Shown: in pieces, positions 42,969-64,000 of the stretch
How the letters are laid out: every line of letters starts with the position of its first letter
Position numbering within the stretch: position 1 is the stretch's first letter
Assembly: GCA_026707665.1 (NCBI GenBank)
Contig: JAPOWK010000093.1
Coordinates: 12,137-76,136 of the forward strand
Reading direction: 5' to 3'
Origin: Chloroflexota bacterium
Lineage (GTDB): Bacteria > Chloroflexota > Anaerolineae > Aggregatilineales > Phototrophicaceae
DNA: 64,000 nt
Notes under the pieces: generated by a model
Told to the model about the DNA's origin: nothing
The model's input: only the letters and a program-made list of their open reading frames with translations
The model's database searches: none
Translations under genes and position numbers: made by a program

Positions 42969-45320
42969 TTAGAATTCGCTTACCGTCGAATTGCCATCAA
43001 TCTTGGCGGCGATCCAGCCGACGACGAAGTTAGCCGTTTGCACCCTCCACCATTCGTAGCGACTCTCACGATAGGGGCCGGCGAGGATTGCAACATAATC
43101 CCCGGTCTCCAATCTACCGATAACGGGGCTATTCGTGCTGGGATCCTGGCGAATGTTCATGTTCCGCGCAAGCCGCAACTGCTGCCCCGGCAGATACTCC
43201 GCGCCCTCGATAACGCCGGCGGGAATTGTCGATGATGCGAATCCGAATCCGCCAGCGCTGAACTGCGGATCGCTCAGTTGGTCGGTGGCATCCTTGACGC
43301 CGCCGCCGTCGACCTGTACCGCGTATTGCCGGCCCTGCACGGAAACGACTACCATGCTGCGATCGGGCAGCCAGCGAACATCTTCCGGCGGGGCGTGACC
43401 GATGAATCCGGAAATCTGCGTGCCAAACTGATCATAGAGCGCGACCGGTCCGCCGCCCGGCGCGCCCGGACGCCCCAAGGCGACGATCTGTCCATTGGGC
43501 CGGCGCACGGCATCGCGCAGCCACAGGCCCCGCGCGCTAGCGTCGAGTATGACGCGCTCGCCCGACAAATCGCTTTCTACTTCGGCGACAACAATGCGGC
43601 CATCGGGGCGGCGGCCGCTGACGATAATGCCCTGCCCGTTTAAATTCCAATGGCCGTAATCATAGCGTACGAAATGCGGCGCCCGGCTGGCTTGATGCTG
43701 AGATTGCTCGCGCACCGCTTGGGCGATTGCCAGGGCATTGCGGCTTTCTTCCGGCAATTCCACGGTGAGCAATACTGTATTGCTGCCCGGAATTGGCGAC
43801 CATGAGACCGCCCTCGTTTGCCACAGCCGCGCGTTGCTGGCATGGACAAAAGAACATGAATGGTAGCCCTCATTCGGACAGTCACGGATGATCGGATAGG
43901 TTGGATCATACTGAGTCACGTTCTGCGGCTGCCAGAACCAGACGCCGGCGTTGGCCGTGTCGGTGCCTGAGGGCGGCGCAATGCGAAAACTGAATTGCCG
44001 CCCGTCAGCCGACCAATCCAATTCAACGACGTAGTTCTTGTTCTCTTCGATGCTGGGCACGCGAAAGCCCGCGAAGAAGGGCGAAGTGCTCATCACGCCC
44101 TCTTGCGAAGCGCCGATGGGTCGGTAGCGCAGCAGGCCGGTGTGATCGGTTCGGATCCAACTGGCGCTATCGACCGGATTGGGCAGGAAAAGGCGAACGC
44201 CATCGCCCAACTGGATATTCTGGAACGTGAATAGCTGAGCCGGACCCACATTGTACTGATAGGCCGGCGCGCTATCGACGTTGAATGTCGACGCAAAGGA
44301 CACCAACGCGATTGTCGGCTGAATTAAATCCGGCTGGACCGCCACCGTCGGCTGGAAGCGCGTGGGCGAAGCTGTAGCAGTCTGCTCGCGTACGCCAACA
44401 TCGGCCGGTGCAGTCGCGTCGCTCGGCGTCGGCGAAGCAAGCGGCGTCGCTTCAGTCGTCGGACCAAGCGCCGCATCGGGCAATTGCACCGTCGGCGCGG
44501 CCGTCCAGGTGGCTGGCGCTGTCGGGCGCGGGGGCAGAGTCGCCAAGAGCCTCGCAACTTCAGTGTCGTCGACCGTAGGCAAGGCAGTAAAGGTCGGTTC
44601 AAATGACCGCTGCGAGATCACAATGATATCGCTCGTTGAGGTGGGCGCAGCCTCCTCCGCCCGCTGTGGCCGGCTTGGCTCTTCAGTTGGGATGGATGTG
44701 GCTCTTGGCGATGCTGTCGCTGTAGACGGCAAGCGCGTAGGCTGCTCCGTCGGCGTATGGGTGTTGGTAGCGGTCGGCGGCTCCGTTGCGCTTGCTCGCT
44801 CGGCGTCGGCTGCCAGCGGCGTATGCGTAGCTGTCAAGGTCGCTGTCGCTGCATCCGTCGCCCTAGGTCTGCTTGTGTCCGTGGCTGTTGCTGTGTTCGT
44901 CGCCGTCGGCTCGTCCGTATCGGATGCGCTTAGGGTAGCGGCTGCTGTCGCTGAAGCCGTCGCCGTCGGCTCGTCGGTATCGGTTGCGGCTAAGGTATCG
45001 GTCGCCGTCGCTGTTGCTGTGCTTGTCGCCTGTGGCTCGCCACTGTCTGTTGCTGTCGGGGTCGCAGTCGCCGATGCCGTTGATGACGCAGTCATGGTTG
45101 CAGCCACCGATCCGGTCGGCGTTGGCGTAATGCTTACGGTCTCAGCGGCTGTCGGCACGCCGGTGACATCGGTCGCTTCGGGCGAAACCGTTTCAATTGG
45201 CGCAAGCGTCAACGTGACATCGGGGCGACGCAATGTACAGGCGCCAGCGAACAACACCACGATGAGCAAAGCAAGACCAGCCCGAACGCGCAATAGCGAC
45301 TCCTGCGGCCTGATTTCCAA
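42969..45320 (-). CDS. Membrane-anchored or secreted protein with a Thr/Ala/Asp/Pro-rich low-complexity region and a C-terminal SH3b-like domain (783 aa)
   Basis: N-terminal anchor GLALLIVVLFAGAC. Residues ~60-330 are TA-rich with repeated DTDEPTAT units. The C-terminus NMNIRQDPSTNSPVIGRLETGDYVAILAG...WWRVQ is SH3b-like. Confidence 0.55.
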   Translation of the reverse strand: MEIRPQESLLRVRAGLALLIVVLFAGACTLRRPDVTLTLAPIETVSPEATDVTGVPTAAETVSITPTPTGSVAATMTASSTASATATPTATDSGEPQATSTATATATDTLAATDTDEPTATASATAAATLSASDTDEPTATNTATATDTSRPRATDAATATLTATHTPLAADAERASATEPPTATNTHTPTEQPTRLPSTATASPRATSIPTEEPSRPQRAEEAAPTSTSDIIVISQRSFEPTFTALPTVDDTEVARLLATLPPRPTAPATWTAAPTVQLPDAALGPTTEATPLASPTPSDATAPADVGVREQTATASPTRFQPTVAVQPDLIQPTIALVSFASTFNVDSAPAYQYNVGPAQLFTFQNIQLGDGVRLFLPNPVDSASWIRTDHTGLLRYRPIGASQEGVMSTSPFFAGFRVPSIEENKNYVVELDWSADGRQFSFRIAPPSGTDTANAGVWFWQPQNVTQYDPTYPIIRDCPNEGYHSCSFVHASNARLWQTRAVSWSPIPGSNTVLLTVELPEESRNALAIAQAVREQSQHQASRAPHFVRYDYGHWNLNGQGIIVSGRRPDGRIVVAEVESDLSGERVILDASARGLWLRDAVRRPNGQIVALGRPGAPGGGPVALYDQFGTQISGFIGHAPPEDVRWLPDRSMVVVSVQGRQYAVQVDGGGVKDATDQLSDPQFSAGGFGFASSTIPAGVIEGAEYLPGQQLRLARNMNIRQDPSTNSPVIGRLETGDYVAILAGPYRESRYEWWRVQTANFVVGWIAAKIDGNSTVSEF

Positions 45321-45440
45321 CCTGTTTCGCGTCTGAACTGATTATAGCAGGCGCGCCAATCGGCGGGGCTTCTAATTCAACTGTAGACACCCGCGCGATG
45401 ACGCCACCGTCCACGCAAAATACCTCGCATCCTGCGTGTT

Positions 45441-45490
45441 TGGCTCCCCCTCCCTCTCTATGGGGGAGGGGGCCGGAGGATGAGGCGCGC
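45441..45490. repeat. G/C-rich hairpin repeat (GGCTCCCCCTCCC-tctcta-TGGGGGAGGGGGCC plus a GGAGGATGAGG tail)
   Basis: Inverted repeat read directly. Same family as 14808-14866. Confidence 0.65.
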
Positions 45491-45556
45491 CGCCCGCAAC
45501 AGCGCCCAATAATAGAAAGGAGTCAGGAACGGAGACCGGGCCCCCGCTCCCGTTGT

Positions 45557-45982
45557 TTAGCTCTGCAACAGATTATCCAGCTCGGCTCTGATGCCGGCGT
45601 CATTGAGAACGCCAAACCAGCGTCCCACAGTGGCGCCATCGGCATTGACCAGGAAGTATTGCGCTTGCGCGGTCGATCCCAACTCGGCTCGCTTGGCGTC
45701 ATGCGCGGAGTTATCGACATCGAGAACGACAAACTCAATCCGACCCGTGTACGTTTCTTGCAACCCACTCACGGTAGGTTGATTGCGGCGACAGGTCGGT
45801 CACCACGATGCCCAGGACTCATAGAAAGTAAAGCGGGGCACGCTCGGCTCGGCGACCACCTCCGGCGACGACGGCTCGGTTGAACCTGAATCGCCCACTA
45901 ACATAGACCGCAGCGCCGAGCAACCGCTAAGGGCTAGCGCGCCGACAAGCAGCAGCACTATCAATCGAATCATTGCTTTCAT
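45557..45982 (-). CDS. Thioredoxin-fold lipoprotein with in-frame TGA at the first CxxC position (candidate selenoprotein; alternatively a pseudogene)
   Basis: ORF-track entries 45800..45982 and 45557..45772 are in the same frame (426 nt in total). They are separated only by TGA (45800-45802) and nine sense codons. The joined product is MKAMIRLIVLLLVGALALSGC (lipobox) ...RFTFYESWASW-[TGA]-PTCRRNQPTVSGLQETYTGRIEFVVLDVDN... Confidence 0.55.
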
Positions 45983-46154
45983 TTGCGCTCCATTTCATCT
46001 CGTATGCGCATTATCGTACGCTTCAATGCTAACGAAAGCGTTACACGATGCAAACAGATTCACACAGACGTATAGTAAGGGGCAATTTGCCAGCGCGAAA
46101 TGGATTTCTGCACCAATGGTGGCGGCTGACGCGAGCGTCGCTGACGGAATGGCC

Positions 46155-47610: not shown

Positions 47611-47964
47611 TTATCCGATTGCGCGTTTGAGAGCGTCCTGATAACCCAGGCGCATCCGTTGACTGACGCCCGCTGTCGGCGCCATGTTTTCCCCACCATG
47701 ATACATGCCAGGTATCACGACCAGTTCAGTCCGGACGCCGGCCGCCATCAGGCGCTGCGCATAATCAATGTCTTCATCGCGGAAAAGATCTTCCGTGGCG
47801 ACCGTGACAAAGGCCGGCGGCAAGGCGTCGACCATTGCTTGCATTAGGCCTTCCAGCATGGCGCGCGCGGCCGGCGGGTCGTCGCCGCATGCGGTGACCA
47901 ATTCGGCTGGAAACAATTCGATAGCTTCGAAAAGTTCTGGATCGACTCGGTCTATGAATGACAT
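47611..47964 (-). pseudogene. In-frame internal-deletion remnant of the alpha/beta-hydrolase paralogues (117 aa; N-terminal ~48 aa fused to C-terminal ~68 aa)
   Basis: MSFIDRVDPELFEAIELFPAEL...MVDALPP-AFVTVATEDLFRDEDIDYAQRLMAAGV...ALKRAIG aligns with both ends of the 315-aa copies. It lacks the HGGG and GxSxG regions. Confidence 0.6.
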
Positions 47965-48024: not shown

Positions 48025-48972
48025 TCAGCCGATGGCGCGCTTCAGCGCGTCGCGATATTCTGTTCTCATCCGCCTGCTGACCACCGCATCGGGCACGGAC
48101 ATTTCGGCGCCGTGGTACATCCCGGCATAGACTTGCAGATCAGTCGGCACACCGGCGGCCATCAAGCGCTGCGCAAATTCAATATCCTCGTCACGGAACA
48201 AGTCCATCGCGCCCACCGTAACCAAGGCCGGCGGCAAGCCGCTAAGATCTTTGGCCCGGGCCGCCGCCGCATACGGGGACACACAATCTGTACCATATTC
48301 GTCGCCCAAGTACATCTTCCAGGCTTTGAATGACAGTTCACGGTTCCAGACTGTGGGATGCGTGACCGCGTGGCCAGAAGGCGTGTCATGTCTATCGTCT
48401 AGCATCGGGTAAATCAGCAGTTGGAAGGCGACATCATGCCCGGCATGATCGCGATTGTACAGCGATACACCCGCTGTTAAGCCGCCGCCAGCGCTCGCTC
48501 CGCCGATAGCGATGCGCATAGGATCGACACCCAGTTGACTTGCGCTGTCGAAAATCCAATTCAGCGCGCCTACGCAATCGGACACGGCAGCCTGATACCT
48601 GTTTTCAGGCGCGAGACGGTAATCCACCGAGACGACCGTACAGCCGACATGTTCGGAAAAGCCGATACCGTGGGGATCATTGCGTCCTGAGCCGATGATG
48701 AAACCGCCGCCATGGATCCAAAGCAGAGCTCCGCGCGGCGCCGGCGTCGGCGGTTCATAAACGACGATCGCGATCTCGCCATCGGGACCTGGAATGGTCC
48801 GCTCTTCGATCGTGATTTCGGACGGCTGCAGGTCGTCAGCAAGGGCATCCCAAATCGGCTGATACATCTCGCGCGCTTTCGGCGGATCATCGCCGACGGC
48901 CTTCATCAATTCGACCGGGAAGAACTCCAGTCCGCGCGCGATTTCGGGGTCTACTTGATCGACGAAGGACAT
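48025..48972 (-). CDS. Alpha/beta hydrolase (hormone-sensitive-lipase-like esterase), tandem copy 1
   Basis: LWIHGGGFIIGS (oxyanion HGGG), GGASAGG (nucleophile elbow), DLFRDE (Asp), MYHGAE (His). Confidence 0.8.
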   Translation of the reverse strand: MSFVDQVDPEIARGLEFFPVELMKAVGDDPPKAREMYQPIWDALADDLQPSEITIEERTIPGPDGEIAIVVYEPPTPAPRGALLWIHGGGFIIGSGRNDPHGIGFSEHVGCTVVSVDYRLAPENRYQAAVSDCVGALNWIFDSASQLGVDPMRIAIGGASAGGGLTAGVSLYNRDHAGHDVAFQLLIYPMLDDRHDTPSGHAVTHPTVWNRELSFKAWKMYLGDEYGTDCVSPYAAAARAKDLSGLPPALVTVGAMDLFRDEDIEFAQRLMAAGVPTDLQVYAGMYHGAEMSVPDAVVSRRMRTEYRDALKRAIG

Positions 48973-49043
48973 GGCTCGCCTCGCTATTATTCCGTCGCAA
49001 TATGACAGGTTTCAGCCGCGAATTTACGGTCTGTCCAGCTAGA

Positions 49044-49991
49044 TCAGCCGATGGCGCGCTTCACAGCGTCGCGATATTCCTTTCTCATCCGTCTGCTGAC
49101 CACCGCTTCGGGCACGGACATTTCGGCGCCGTGAATCATTCCCGGATAAACCTGCAAATCCGTCGGCACGCCAGCCGCCATGAGTCGCTGCGCATAATCG
49201 ATGTTCTCGTCACGGAACAAATCCAGGGCGCCTACCGTTACGAAGGCGGGCGGCAAATTGCTGAAATCCTTGGCGCGCGCCGCCGCCGCGTAAGGCGACA
49301 CTGGATCCCTGCCAAATTCGTCGCCCAAATACATCTTCCAGGCGGCCAAGGACACCTGACGATGCCAGACTGTGGGATGCGTAATTTCATGTCCCGATGG
49401 CGTATCATGCCTATCGTCAATCATCGGATATAGCATCAATTGCAGCTTAAGCGCAGGACCGCCCTGGTCACGGTTGTAATGCGCCAGCCCAGCGGTCAAG
49501 CCGCCGCCCGCGCTGCCGCCGCCTATTGCGATGCGCTCCCGGTCAATTCCCAATGCAGACGCGTTATCCACCATCCATTTCAGCGCCGCGAAACAATCGG
49601 CGATGCTCTCTTTGTAAGTCGATTCGGGCGCCAGGCGATAGTCCACTGAAACGACGGTACAGTCCACGTGCTCGGCGAATCCAACACCGTGATAATCAGC
49701 GCGCGCCGTGCCCACGATGTAGCCGCCGCCATGCATCCACAGCAATCCCCCGCGCGGCGCCGGCGTCGGCGGCTGATAGATGACGACGGGAATGTCGCCA
49801 TCCGGTCCGGCGAAGGCAGTCTCTTCAATCGTCACCTCAGTATGTGGTAGCGCGTCCCGCAATCTACTTTGGTACTCTTCCGTCAACTGTCGCGCTCTTG
49901 GCGGGTCTTCGCCGACGGCGACAAAGCGCTCAGCCGGCATCAGGTCGAGCGCGCCGACGAGTTCGGGGTCGATTCGGTCGATGAAGGACAT
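49044..49991 (-). CDS. Alpha/beta hydrolase (HSL-like esterase), tandem copy 2
   Basis: LWMHGGGYIVGT, GGGSAGG, DLFRDE, MIHGAE. 315 aa. Confidence 0.8.
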   Translation of the reverse strand: MSFIDRIDPELVGALDLMPAERFVAVGEDPPRARQLTEEYQSRLRDALPHTEVTIEETAFAGPDGDIPVVIYQPPTPAPRGGLLWMHGGGYIVGTARADYHGVGFAEHVDCTVVSVDYRLAPESTYKESIADCFAALKWMVDNASALGIDRERIAIGGGSAGGGLTAGLAHYNRDQGGPALKLQLMLYPMIDDRHDTPSGHEITHPTVWHRQVSLAAWKMYLGDEFGRDPVSPYAAAARAKDFSNLPPAFVTVGALDLFRDENIDYAQRLMAAGVPTDLQVYPGMIHGAEMSVPEAVVSRRMRKEYRDAVKRAIG

Positions 49992-50062
49992 GAGTCTGCT
50001 CCCTAGGTTTCCGGCGAGAAAAGTGGCGCCCTTATGGCGACTGCCCGCTCGCTCCGTCGCAG

Positions 50063-51010
50063 TCAGCCGATCGCGCGCTTCAAGGGCTCAAGGTAGCCCA
50101 AACGCATGCGCTTGCTGACATCGGCATCCGGCGCCTTCAATTCCGCGCCGTGATACACTTGGGCGTAAACTTGCAGGTCGGTCGCCACGCCCGCCGCCAT
50201 CAGTCGCTGCGCATAATCAATATTCTCATCGCGGAACAAGTCCAGCGTGCCGACGGTGACCAAAGCCGGCGGCAAAGCGCTGAGGTCTTCTGCCCGTGTC
50301 GGCGCCGCGTAGGGCGACACCTCGTCACTGCCGAAGTCGTCTCCCAAGTACATCTTCCAGGCTTTGAAGGACACATCCCGATTCCAGACGGCCGGATAGG
50401 TAACCTCGTGACTGGAGGGCGTCTCATGCGCGTCGTCAAGCATCGGGTAAATCAGCAATTGGAATGCCAGCTCGGGACCCTTGTTGTCGCGGTTGTAAAG
50501 CGCCAAGCCAGCCGATAAGCCGCCACCGGCGCTGCGCCCGCCGATGGCGACGCGTTGCCTGTCGATGCCGAGCTCGGCAGCCTGGTCCACCATCCAGTTT
50601 AGCGCGGTAAAGCTATCCGAGATGATCTCCCTGAATGTCACTTCAGGCGCAAGACGATAGCCCACCGAAACTACGGTGCAGCCGACAAAATCGGCGATTT
50701 CAACGCAGGGCGGGTCGTCGCGCTCGTCGCCAACGATGTAGCCACCGCCGTGAAACCAAAGCAGCCCCCCGCGCGGTCCAGGAACCGGCGGCTGATAGAC
50801 GGCCAGCGGGAGTTCGCAATCCGGACCCGGAATCGTCAATTCGGTAATTTCGACGTCCGTCGGCGGGAGCTTGGCGCGCGCTTCAAGGTTGACCTCATCG
50901 GTCATCTCGCGCCCTAGAGGCGGATCGTCGCCGATGGCCCGGTAGCGTTCGGCCTGATGGGCGTCGAGTGCGTCGACGATTTCGGGGTCGACTAGGTCGA
51001 GGAAGGACAT
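50063..51010 (-). CDS. Alpha/beta hydrolase (HSL-like esterase), tandem copy 3
   Basis: LWFHGGGYIVGD, GGRSAGG, DLFRDE, VYHGAE. 315 aa. Confidence 0.8.
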   Translation of the reverse strand: MSFLDLVDPEIVDALDAHQAERYRAIGDDPPLGREMTDEVNLEARAKLPPTDVEITELTIPGPDCELPLAVYQPPVPGPRGGLLWFHGGGYIVGDERDDPPCVEIADFVGCTVVSVGYRLAPEVTFREIISDSFTALNWMVDQAAELGIDRQRVAIGGRSAGGGLSAGLALYNRDNKGPELAFQLLIYPMLDDAHETPSSHEVTYPAVWNRDVSFKAWKMYLGDDFGSDEVSPYAAPTRAEDLSALPPALVTVGTLDLFRDENIDYAQRLMAAGVATDLQVYAQVYHGAELKAPDADVSKRMRLGYLEPLKRAIG

Positions 51011-63789: not shown

Positions 63790-64000
63790 ATGTGCCGGGT
63801 CGACGCCGTAAGCCGCATTCTGTCCGTCGAGACGGGGGAATCATCTATCTGGGATCGGCGTCGCCACCGATCTCTAGCGGCGTACCCGGCGCTTTCTACG
63901 GAACGGGCCACTCCCCGGCGCCTGTTTCGCCTTGCTCCCGATGGGGTTTGCCTGGCCATCGACATCGCTGCCGATGCCGGTGCGCTCTTACCGCACCCTT
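63790..64000 (-). ncRNA. rnpB: RNase P RNA (bacterial type A), 3' portion; the 5' part lies beyond the window end
   Basis: The reverse complement contains AAGGGUGCGGUAAGAGCGCACCG, GGCAAACCCCAUCGGGAGCAAGGCGAAACAGG, CCCAGAUAGAUGAUU and GACGGACAGAAUGCGGCUUACGG. These are collinear with the conserved blocks of E. coli M1 RNA as I recall them. The 3' boundary is approximate. Confidence 0.88.

What the first reader, a model, noticed from the sequence alone, without database searches (positions are those of the whole stretch)
45557..45982. In-frame TGA at the first cysteine position of a thioredoxin-fold CxxC motif (W-U-P-T-C): candidate selenoprotein with a downstream SECIS-like hairpin
Seen in sequence (minus strand): the two ORF-track entries 45800..45982 and 45557..45772 share one frame. 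The junction reads ...TTC TAT GAG TCC TGG GCA TCG TGG TGA CCG ACC TGT CGC..., which translates as F-Y-E-S-W-A-S-W-[TGA]-P-T-C-R. The joined 141-codon product looks like a complete thioredoxin-fold lipoprotein. It has a lipobox (LSGC), the (F/Y)xxxWxxW-CxxC context, then GRIEFVVLDVDN and a C-terminal beta-alpha segment.

The stop codon therefore sits exactly where the redox-active N-terminal Cys is expected. TGA is one substitution from TGC or TGT. Eighteen nt after the TGA lies a 7-bp stem, CAACCUA / UGGGUUG, with a 7-nt loop CCGUGAG (plus-strand 45761-45781).

Established knowledge: bacterial SECIS elements are hairpins within the coding sequence shortly 3' of the UGA. Thioredoxin-like, Prx-like and DsbA-like UxxC selenoproteins with Cys-containing homologues are documented in bacteria.

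Inference: this is either Sec recoding, a recent nonsense mutation, or a sequencing error. No sel genes lie in this window.
Basis: partly seen in the sequence, partly recalled or inferred. Interest (0 to 1): 0.8.

Follow-up and report, generated by a model that had tools for sequence, protein, structure and literature searches.

The report
Selenocysteine thioredoxin-like lipoprotein gene
The apparent stop codon inside this small gene very probably encodes selenocysteine at the active site of a membrane-anchored thioredoxin-like enzyme; about a hundred relatives in Chloroflexota keep the same feature, and gene callers cut the gene in two, so no named database entry seen here calls it a selenoprotein.

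Summary
One 141-codon frame on the minus strand (45982..45557) has a TGA at 45802..45800, at the first Cys position of a thioredoxin W-C-x-x-C motif.

The TGA is neither a sequencing error nor a decaying pseudogene:
- The locus is 100% identical in assemblies from four runs or samples.
- All 17 orthologues from other Chloroflexota genomes (59-90% identity) carry TGA there, never TAA or TAG.
- All 80 metagenomic members of a divergent sister clade, and three further lineages, do the same.
- Downstream codons are under purifying selection (dN/dS about 0.12).
- TGA is the commonest true terminator in the window.
- Full-length homologues have Cys at this column.

The hairpin at 45781..45761 meets every criterion of the published bacterial SECIS model. 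It is conserved across both clades, and five of its eight pairs show compensatory changes.

The best explanation is SelB/SECIS-directed insertion of selenocysteine, giving an extracytoplasmic UxxC thiol/selenol oxidoreductase lipoprotein. I could not check for selA/selB/selC/selD in the same genomes.

In 28 of 65 testable sister-clade loci the gene precedes csoR and copA (csoR-copZ-copA in the one fully annotated locus), but not in this window.

This is a new member of a known kind. Confidence is about 0.93.

The parts
45557..45982 (-). Complete selenoprotein gene: 141 codons including Sec61, plus the TAA stop (45559..45557). The product is a thioredoxin-fold lipoprotein.
   Evidence: Single frame. 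Pfam Thioredoxin hit. 17 full-length orthologues with the same architecture. The family profile matches PDB thioredoxins at E about 4e-20.
45988..45991 (-). Shine-Dalgarno-like GGAG, 5 nt upstream of the ATG.
   Evidence: Read directly from the sequence. Inference only.
45920..45982 (-). Lipoprotein signal peptide MKAMIRLIVLLLVGALALSGC, with lipobox L-S-G-C. Cys21 is the predicted lipidated residue.
   Evidence: Sequence. An L-[AS]-[GA]-C lipobox is kept in all 18 clade members and in most full-length Cys homologues examined.
45800..45802 (-). In-frame TGA, the predicted Sec codon (residue 61).
   Evidence: TGA in 18/18 orthologues, while the true terminators vary among TAA, TAG and TGA. TGA in 80/80 sister-clade loci and in L105-L108. 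Homologues have Cys at the same column.
45791..45802 (-). Redox motif U-P-T-C (TGA CCG ACC TGT). It aligns with the WCGPC active site of thioredoxin.
   Evidence: Profile alignment to PDB thioredoxins. The second Cys is invariant but its codon varies synonymously (TGT x10, TGC x8), so it is constrained as protein.
45761..45781 (-). SECIS apical hairpin. The 5' arm is 45781..45774, the loop CGUGA is 45773..45769, and the 3' arm is 45768..45761. The core conserved across clades is 6 bp (45779..45774 paired with 45768..45763).
   Evidence: Folding. In the window's clade, 93.8% of cells are paired and 3 of 8 pairs show compensatory changes. Across 86 sequences from two clades, the 6-bp core is paired in about 99% of cells (4 unpaired of 516), 5 of 8 pairs have double changes, and 0 of 500 shuffles reach the covariation score. 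It meets all four bSECIS model criteria (PMC13188914).
45524..45552 (-). Terminator-like hairpin (13 pairs) just after the true stop codon.
   Evidence: Consensus scan only. Function is inferred.

Best explanation
This is one intact gene for a selenoprotein.

Mechanism, inferred from established bacterial Sec biology: the mRNA is translated from ATG 45982. [quoted passage not shown] SelB carries Sec-tRNA(Sec), selenocysteine is inserted, and translation continues to TAA 45559..45557.

Predicted fate of the product: the 141-residue protein has a lipoprotein signal peptide. It is therefore predicted to be exported, lipidated on Cys21 and anchored on the outer face of the cytoplasmic membrane.

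Predicted activity: its roughly 95-residue thioredoxin-fold domain carries a U-P-T-C redox centre in which Sec replaces the nucleophilic N-terminal Cys. That would make it an extracytoplasmic thiol/selenol-disulfide oxidoreductase, most likely a reductase, because the W-C-P-T-C type of motif is shared with CcmG/DsbE-type reductants.

Shown here: the conserved in-frame UGA, translation of the downstream part, the conserved and covarying hairpin, Cys homologues, the Trx fold and the lipobox.

Inferred: SelB dependence, actual selenium incorporation, export and lipidation, the direction of redox chemistry, and the substrate. A copper-stress role is suggested only by the operon context of a sister clade.
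For: (1) The TGA is real. The locus is 100% identical over 726 nt in ERZ23500023, ERR5004219 and ERR5002190, and over the 679 nt available in ERR5005006.

(2) All 17 orthologues from distinct Chloroflexota genomes (59-90% identity) cover residues 1-141 and have TGA at the same column. Their terminators vary among TAA, TAG and TGA.

(3) Median dN/dS downstream of the TGA is about 0.12, with synonymous sites near saturation (window vs L024 dS about 1.8). The codons between the TGA and the first possible restart codon (P-T-C-R-R-N) are invariant as protein.

(4) TGA terminates 21 of 41 long ORFs in the window, so the code is not reassigned.

(5) An exhaustive HMMER search found about 50 full-length homologues with W-C-x-x-C at the aligned position. 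It also found about 55 fragments of 56-83 aa that start just after that position.

(6) All 80 metagenomic loci of a divergent sister clade have TGA at the column. So do L105-L108.

(7) The hairpin lies over the same codons (P-x-V-x-G) in both clades, with loop CGUG(A/C). Over 86 sequences, the 6-bp core has only 4 unpaired cells of 516. Pair 34-42 switches A-U to G-C in 20 sequences and pair 35-41 switches U-A to C-G in 18. No shuffle (0/500) reaches the covariation score, and slid registers fall to 15-45% paired.

(8) Synonymous variation is reduced in codons +1..+16 (pS 0.43 against 0.62-0.67 elsewhere).

(9) All four published bSECIS criteria are met: 5-nt loop, 8-bp stem, G at loop position 2 followed by U, 26-nt spacing, MFE -9.1 kcal/mol (criteria from PMC13188914).

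(10) Trx fold: PF00085 scores above its cutoff, and the profile matches PDB thioredoxins with the active sites aligned.

(11) Chloroflexota are documented Sec users (PMC13326102, PMC13582414, PMC1794560).
Against: No selA, selB, selD or tRNA-Sec gene was found in the window or in any fetched flank. I could not search the rest of these genomes, so the trans-acting machinery is unverified for this lineage.

Literature support for Sec use in Chloroflexota concerns mainly Dehalococcoidia, not this family.

On a single sequence the hairpin is only mildly more stable than shuffles (z = -2.1). 13 of the 86 hairpins are weaker than the -7.5 kcal/mol model threshold, including 4 clade members with a C-A mismatch.

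No Rfam family matched. There are no expression, proteomic or selenium-labelling data.
Confidence: 0.93

Rival explanations
1. The UGA is read through, but not as selenocysteine. For example, Cys might be inserted by a Sec-like tRNA/SelB system, or Trp/Cys by near-cognate suppression. The protein would then be an ordinary CxxC (or WxxC) thioredoxin-like lipoprotein made through programmed read-through.
For: The Sec machinery was not demonstrated in these genomes. The conservation and selection data prove read-through, not the identity of the inserted residue.
Against: The hairpin has the position, size and G-U loop signature of SelB-dependent bSECIS elements (PMC13188914). The UGA sits exactly where Cys/Sec exchange is the rule in Trx-fold selenoproteins. 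A lineage needing Cys could simply use TGY, as about 50 homologous clusters do. Keeping TGA plus a hairpin in more than 100 sequences implies a benefit specific to the recoded residue.
Confidence: 0.04
2. The locus encodes two separate products: a 60-residue lipopeptide that terminates at the TGA, and a C-terminal fragment that restarts downstream (GTG 45772). This is how the gene callers annotate it.
For: Gene callers report a 60-aa ORF and, in relatives, 71-75 aa ORFs. A GTG lies 10 codons after the TGA.
Against: The split would cut a thioredoxin fold through its active site. The nine codons between the TGA and the GTG are protein-constrained: P-T-C-R-R-N is invariant, and the Cys codon varies synonymously. 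The putative restart codon is not a conserved feature, because sister-clade fragments start at different positions. Cys homologues are single full-length proteins.
Confidence: 0.02
3. It is a pseudogene created by a nonsense mutation, or the TGA is a sequencing or assembly error.
For: TGA is one substitution from TGC or TGT. A single window cannot distinguish these cases.
Against: The sequence is identical in four independent runs or assemblies. The same codon is present in 18/18, 80/80 and 3/3 related lineages separated by saturated synonymous divergence. dN/dS is about 0.12 downstream, and no frameshifts or additional stops were seen in any copy.
Confidence: 0.01

Closest known systems
Sec-containing thioredoxin (Trx, PF00085, UxxC), e.g. 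Treponema denticola. Listed as experimentally verified in the prokaryotic selenoprotein inventories (PMC13188914, PMC9312934).
   Same: It has a thioredoxin fold. Sec replaces the N-terminal nucleophilic Cys of the CxxC motif (UxxC). It has Cys-containing homologues, and its SECIS lies inside the coding sequence just 3' of the UGA.
   Different: This protein is a lipoprotein with a signal peptide and a linker of about 25 residues, so it is predicted to be extracytoplasmic rather than cytosolic. It scores only 34 bits on the TrxA equivalog TIGR01068 (cutoff 96.8). Its motif is W-U-P-T-C rather than W-U-G-P-C. In the window's clade the residue aligned to the canonical cis-Pro is Ala.
[quoted passage not shown]
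   Same: They are Trx-superfamily members with a UxxC motif and a presumed thiol-disulfide oxidoreductase role outside the cytoplasm. They were identified by the same Sec/Cys-homology plus bSECIS logic used here.
   Different: I could not compare sequences with the catalogue representatives or with BSepDB. The Pfam hits to PF08534, PF13905 and PF13462 are below their cutoffs, and PF13098 was not among the hits at E up to 0.1. None of the NCBIfam selenoprotein-specific models matched. Whether the catalogues already include this Chloroflexota family is unknown.
Membrane-anchored extracytoplasmic thioredoxin-like reductants: CcmG/DsbE, ResA, StoA and TlpA (named from NCBIfam hits), and surface Trx lipoproteins of Gram-positive bacteria (my own knowledge).
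   Same: The active-site context W-x-x-W-C-P-T-C-R resembles the CcmG/DsbE type. Like them, it is membrane-tethered with an outward-facing Trx domain. A role as a reductant is plausible.
   Different: All scores are far below the family cutoffs (dsbE 23 vs 123, TlpA 22.5 vs 230, ResA 19 vs 170). The domain is minimal (about 95 residues) and lacks the extra insert typical of those families. It has Sec instead of Cys. No ccdA/dsbD or cytochrome c maturation genes were seen among the neighbours.
Trx-fold proteins of copper handling: Sco1/SenC, TlpA (reduces ScoI and CoxB), and CopG, which is linked to copA (PMC7558416).
   Same: In the sister clade the Sec-Trx gene lies directly upstream of, and co-directional with, csoR, with copA beyond it (copZ as well in the Pfam-annotated loci L107 and L108). 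This holds in 28 of 65 non-redundant loci with enough flank. A two-ligand U/C-x-x-C site could bind Cu(I) or repair copper-induced disulfides.
   Different: There is no sequence membership: the motif is UxxC, not the CxxxC plus His of Sco or the CxCC of CopG. The copper context is absent from the window and from all 17 close orthologues. It is a lead for the family, not evidence for this gene.

Membership tests
Bacterial selenoprotein gene (Sec-UGA plus bSECIS) | In-frame UGA conserved at the same column in orthologues, while ordinary stop codons vary. | tested here: met
   TGA in 18/18 clade members. Their terminators are TAA, TAG or TGA. TGA in 80/80 sister-clade loci and in L105-L108.
Bacterial selenoprotein gene (Sec-UGA plus bSECIS) | Homologues with Cys aligned to the UGA column. 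| tested here: met
   About 50 full-length cluster representatives have W-C-x-x-C at the aligned position.
Bacterial selenoprotein gene (Sec-UGA plus bSECIS) | The sequence 3' of the UGA is translated, i.e. under purifying selection in the same frame. | tested here: met
   Median dN/dS is 0.125 downstream and 0.095 in codons +1..+16, with dS near saturation.
Bacterial selenoprotein gene (Sec-UGA plus bSECIS) | bSECIS model: 3-9 nt apical loop; 4-16 bp upper stem; G in the first two loop positions; 16-37 nt between UGA and loop; MFE of -7.5 kcal/mol or lower (PMC13188914). | tested here: met
   The loop is CGUGA (5 nt, G at position 2 followed by U), the stem is 8 bp, the spacing is 26 nt, and the MFE is -9.1 kcal/mol. 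73 of 86 family sequences pass the MFE threshold. Covariation supports the stem.
Bacterial selenoprotein gene (Sec-UGA plus bSECIS) | The genome encodes selA, selB, selD and tRNA-Sec (selC). | not testable with these tools
   None is present in the 64-kb window or in any fetched flank. A SelA protein query returned only Enterobacteriaceae.
Bacterial selenoprotein gene (Sec-UGA plus bSECIS) | Selenium is physically present in the protein. | not testable with these tools
   This requires 75Se labelling or mass spectrometry.
Thioredoxin superfamily (Pfam PF00085) | HMM match above the gathering score. | tested here: met
   30.6 bits against 23.5 with Cys substituted. The family profile matches PDB thioredoxins at E = 4e-20.
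Thioredoxin superfamily (Pfam PF00085) | A CxxC-type redox motif aligned with WCGPC. | tested here: met
   W-[U/C]-p-t-C aligns on W-C-G-P-C in 2yj7_A and in thioredoxin domain-containing protein 5.
Thioredoxin superfamily (Pfam PF00085) | A conserved cis-Pro loop facing the active site. | tested here: inconclusive
   The profile position aligned to the Pro of 'IPT' in thioredoxin is Pro in the sister clade (Q-P) but Ala in all 18 window-clade sequences (A-Q-A-Q-Y). This rests on alignment only; no structure was predicted.
TrxA equivalog (TIGR01068) and TlpA/ResA/DsbE families (NCBIfam) | Score at or above the curated cutoff. | tested here: not met
   TIGR01068 34 vs 96.8; dsbE 23.3 vs 123; TlpA 22.5 vs 230; ResA 19.2 vs 170.
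NCBIfam selenoprotein-specific Trx-like families (e.g. SaoT NF040730, HUIPC NF047660, VPGUxxT NF041383, WAxxUGC NF041054) | Match to the family model. | tested here: not met
   The only hit is a 15.4-bit hit to NF041054 against a cutoff of 300. The other models gave no hit at E up to 0.01.
Bacterial lipoprotein | An N-terminal signal peptide ending in a lipobox [LVI][ASTVI][GAS]C. | tested here: met
   MKAMIRLIVLLLVGALA-LSGC. The lipobox is kept in all orthologues and in most Cys homologues. It was judged by inspection; no dedicated predictor was run. An lgt gene lies nearby in the sister clade.

The most novel reading that the evidence does not exclude
This gene could be a member of a previously uncatalogued family of exported, lipid-anchored selenoproteins found across Anaerolineae-type Chloroflexota. 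In that family the selenolate of a U-x-x-C site would work in copper handling on the outer face of the membrane. It might bind or reduce copper, or undo copper-catalysed disulfides, as the first gene of a Sec-Trx/csoR/copZ/copA operon. The window's sponge/coral-associated clade would then be a derivative that has moved to a cell-envelope glycoprotein neighbourhood. That would be a direct genetic link between selenium use and copper homeostasis.
Probability: 0.2. Interest if true: 0.7.

Novelty: new member of a known kind. Interest (0 to 1): 0.5.

Why it matters
1. Annotation. Gene callers cut this gene and its Sec-type relatives in two. The fragments appear in the protein collections without a name or as 71-75 aa 'hypothetical proteins'. 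None of the named family hits seen here is called a selenoprotein, so selenium use in this lineage may be under-counted.

2. A usable SECIS model. The family offers an unusually clean natural data set of more than 100 sequences from two clades, with a nearly invariant CGUG(A/C) loop and compensatory stem changes that include amino-acid-changing ones. It could be used to build a Chloroflexota SECIS model and to study how coding and RNA-structure constraints are reconciled.

3. Biology. A selenoprotein that is exported and lipidated shows Sec being used on the oxidising side of the membrane. The sister clade's position at the head of csoR and copA gives a directly testable hypothesis linking selenium to copper stress.

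None of this overturns current understanding, because Trx-fold UxxC proteins are the commonest type of bacterial selenoprotein.

Tried and rejected
Searches that led nowhere:
- A word-seeded protein search with the joined protein found nothing, because the database holds only the split fragments.
I used the exact 80-aa post-TGA fragment instead.
- Rfam gave nothing relevant at gathering or permissive thresholds.

Attempts to find the Sec machinery:
- ARAGORN on the window and all loci found no tRNA-Sec.
- tblastn with E. coli SelA/SelB/SelD, recalled from memory, found nothing in any held DNA. The SelA recall proved 99-100% identical to database E. coli entries.
- A database search with SelA returned only Enterobacteriaceae in its top 120 hits, so Chloroflexota SelA could not be reached.
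- Literature searches found no statement about Sec in Phototrophicaceae or Anaerolineae, and no BSepDB supplement is held.

Other checks:
- A scan of the window for other in-frame TGA ORF fusions was too noisy at 59% GC to yield a second candidate.
- Two family alignments were too diverse for the metagenome pattern search. A four-sequence alignment worked.
- The extended lower stem predicted for the single sequence (window 45799..45789 paired with 45753..45740) is rejected as a conserved feature. It shows no compensatory changes, and several of its pairs are unpaired in most sequences (10-14 of 18 at three of them). The rest are explained by conserved Pro, Thr, Gly and Arg codons.

Interpretations rejected: genome-wide TGA reassignment, pseudogene, sequencing error and split gene (see the rival explanations).

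Full report
**1. The observation**

On the minus strand, the two listed ORFs 45800..45982 and 45557..45772 lie in one frame. Translating 45982..45557 gives 141 codons with a single internal TGA at 45802..45800. The context is F-Y-E-S-W-A-S-W-[TGA]-P-T-C-R.

A GGAG sits 5 nt upstream of the ATG. The N-terminus, MKAMIRLIVLLLVGALA-LSGC, is a lipoprotein signal peptide with a lipobox. With Cys placed at the TGA, Pfam Thioredoxin scores above its gathering cutoff (30.6 vs 23.5 bits).

It folds as an 8-bp stem with a 5-nt loop, CAACCUAC-CGUGA-GUGGGUUG. On its own it is only mildly unusual (z = -2.1).

**2. Not an error, not a pseudogene**

The 60-aa N-terminal ORF is on record in assemblies of four separate runs or samples (ERZ23500023, ERR5004219, ERR5002190, ERR5005006). 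The DNA of all copies is 100% identical to the window across the gene and its flanks.

A scan of one genome per species found 17 orthologous loci. They come from Chloroflexota MAGs labelled Phototrophicaceae, Aggregatilineales, Anaerolineae or Chloroflexi, and some isolate names suggest sponge or coral hosts. They are 59-90% identical and each covers residues 1-141.

Every one has an in-frame stop at the same column, and in every case it is TGA. The genuine terminators of the same genes are TAA, TAG or, once, TGA.

Downstream of the TGA the median pairwise dN/dS is about 0.12, while synonymous sites are near saturation. The residues between the TGA and the first possible restart codon (P-T-C-R-R-N) are invariant. 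The second Cys codon alternates TGT/TGC, so it is constrained as an amino acid.

TGA ends 21 of the 41 long ORFs in the window, so the genetic code is standard.

**3. Sec/Cys pairs and the breadth of the family**

The word-seeded protein search found nothing, because databases hold only fragments. An exhaustive HMMER search with the exact 80-residue post-TGA fragment found 126 cluster representatives.

- About 50 are full-length proteins with W-C-x-x-C at the aligned position, most of them with lipoboxes of their own.
- About 55 are proteins of 56-83 aa that begin a few residues after that position, which is what a gene caller makes of a Sec gene.

To test this I fetched DNA for a divergent sister clade, whose motif is PxVHGLE...IDFVYLDIDDP. 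All 80 metagenomic loci have TGA at the first Cys position. Three further lineages reached through contig look-ups show the same: a TGA, a lipobox and a hairpin.

Public sources call the Cys forms 'thiol:disulfide interchange protein' or 'thioredoxin domain-containing protein' from Anaerolineae, Anaerolineales or Chloroflexi. The fragments are 'hypothetical protein' or have no name, and none is annotated as a selenoprotein.

**4. The SECIS element**

Within the window's clade the hairpin is paired in 93.8% of cells, and 3 of 8 pairs show compensatory double changes. The longer lower stem predicted for the single sequence shows no covariation and is explained by conserved codons.

The sister clade has a hairpin over the same codons (P-x-V-x-G), with loop CGUGC instead of CGUGA.

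In the ungapped 86-sequence alignment of both clades, the 6-bp core has only 4 unpaired cells of 516:

| Pair (columns) | Change seen |
|---|---|
| 34-42 | A-U to G-C in 20 sequences |
| 35-41 | U-A to C-G in 18 sequences |
| 30-46, 33-43, 28-48 | also show double changes |

Some of these changes pair an amino-acid substitution on one arm (Ile/Val, Thr/Ala) with a synonymous change on the other. No shuffle (0/500) reaches the observed covariation score, and sliding the 3' arm by 1-3 nt drops pairing to 15-45%. Synonymous variation is also reduced in codons +1..+16.

The published bacterial SECIS model requires a 3-9 nt loop, a 4-16 bp stem, G in the first two loop positions (usually followed by G or U), 16-37 nt between UGA and loop, and an MFE of -7.5 kcal/mol or lower (PMC13188914). 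The window element has a 5-nt loop with G at position 2 followed by U, an 8-bp stem, a 26-nt spacing and an MFE of -9.1 kcal/mol.

**5. What the protein is**

The family profile matches solved classical thioredoxins at E about 4e-20. W-[U/C]-x-x-C lies on W-C-G-P-C, so Sec takes the place of the nucleophilic N-terminal Cys.

It is not a TrxA, TlpA, ResA or DsbE family member by NCBIfam cutoffs, and none of the selenoprotein-specific NCBIfam models matches.

The mature protein would be a linker of about 25 residues plus a minimal Trx domain of about 95 residues, tethered to the membrane by a lipid anchor. In the window's clade the position aligned to the canonical cis-Pro is Ala. That is an oddity I did not resolve.

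A terminator-like hairpin follows the stop codon.

**6. Context and function**

In the window's clade the order tRNA-Lys(CTT) - NAD-dependent epimerase - Sec-Trx - PT-rich SH3_3 lipoprotein - GT2 glycosyltransferase is conserved. This is a cell-envelope-like neighbourhood with no redox partner or metal genes.

In the sister clade, 28 of 65 non-redundant loci with enough downstream sequence have a CsoR-family repressor directly downstream and co-directional, and a CopA-type ATPase follows where the flank reaches far enough. 19 of 42 loci with enough upstream sequence have a divergent TlpA-like redoxin, usually followed by lgt.

L107 shows the whole arrangement: Lgt <- Redoxin <- | -> Sec-Trx -> CsoR -> CopZ -> CopA.

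Trx-fold proteins are established in copper handling: Sco1, TlpA and CopG (PMC7558416). A copper-related role is therefore a reasonable hypothesis for that subclade. For the window gene it is only a lead, because no csoR or copA lies in the window or in its 17 orthologous loci.

**7. What could not be done**

None of those genes is in any DNA I hold.

The literature shows that Chloroflexota include Sec users, some of them very selenoprotein-rich, but it says nothing specific about this family.

**8. Verdict**

This is a genuine selenoprotein gene with high probability (about 0.93). It meets the field's standard computational criteria: a conserved UGA, Sec/Cys homology, a translated downstream region and a model-conforming, covarying SECIS. 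It meets them in far more sequences than is usual.

In kind it is a Trx-fold UxxC selenoprotein, the commonest type, so it is a new member of a known kind. Its added interest lies in three points: its lipoprotein nature, the systematic mis-annotation of the Sec forms in Chloroflexota, and the copper-operon association of a sister clade.

Noticed in passing
L107:8020-13528 (GCA_035256145.1, DATEYQ010000132.1); also L032, L033, L041, L042, L046, L049, L051, L056-L058, L073, L074, L087, L097, L102 and L108: In a sister clade the Sec-Trx gene is the first gene of an apparent copper operon. In the Pfam-annotated loci L107 and L108 it reads Sec-Trx -> CsoR -> CopZ -> CopA; in L107 a divergent TlpA-like redoxin and lgt lie upstream. 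In the other loci listed, CsoR and CopA (and usually the redoxin and lgt) were detected by tblastn, and CopZ was not probed. CsoR follows the gene in 28 of 65 non-redundant loci with enough flank. This context is absent from the window's own clade.
   Followed up: partly
L030:1612 and 2182; L031:1591 and 2200; L077:1540 and 2414 (positions of the TGA codons): Three metagenomic loci carry two tandem Sec-Trx genes on the same strand. The second copy has a different residue pair before the Sec (Y-N-U or F-Y-U instead of x-W-U).
   Followed up: no
window 45644..45670 (minus strand; residues S-T-A-Q-A-Q-Y-F-L): The position aligned to the near-universal cis-Pro of thioredoxin-fold proteins is Ala in all 18 window-clade sequences (A-Q-A-Q-Y). 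It is Pro in the sister clade (Q-P) and Ser in some Cys forms (R-S-Q-Y). This is unusual for a redox-active Trx fold. It rests on alignment only.
   Followed up: partly
L036, L060, L071, L082, L086, L094, L095: In seven sister-clade loci the residue before Sec is not Trp (Y-D-U, D-T-U, F-G-U, F-T-U). L036 also has a different hairpin, with a 7-bp stem and a GUU loop.
   Followed up: no
window 48025-51010 (minus) and 47611-47964 (minus): There are three tandem 315-aa Abhydrolase_3 (esterase/lipase) paralogues, followed by a 117-aa C-terminal fragment of a fourth copy.
   Followed up: no
window 42969-45320 (minus): Immediately downstream of the Sec-Trx gene is a 783-aa putative lipoprotein with a long Pro/Thr/Ala/Asp-rich repeat region and an SH3_3 domain. 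It is conserved in that position in 16 of 17 orthologous loci. Its repeat region creates long spurious antisense ORFs (e.g. 44362..45336 on the plus strand), which gene callers report.
   Followed up: no
window 45443-45474 (minus strand): There is a G/C-rich inverted repeat (GGCCCCCTCCCCC-ATAGAGA-GGGAGGGGGAGCC) in the intergenic region between the Sec-Trx gene and the SH3_3 gene. It lies about 50 nt beyond the terminator-like hairpin.
   Followed up: no
window 63793-64000 (minus): This is the 3' part of a bacterial class A RNase P RNA (Rfam RF00010, 130.7 bits), cut off by the end of the window.
   Followed up: no
window 45398-45883 (plus): Gene callers report a 161-aa antisense ORF overlapping the Sec-Trx gene in several assemblies (L001, L004-L006). 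It is most likely spurious, a side effect of the real gene being split.
   Followed up: no
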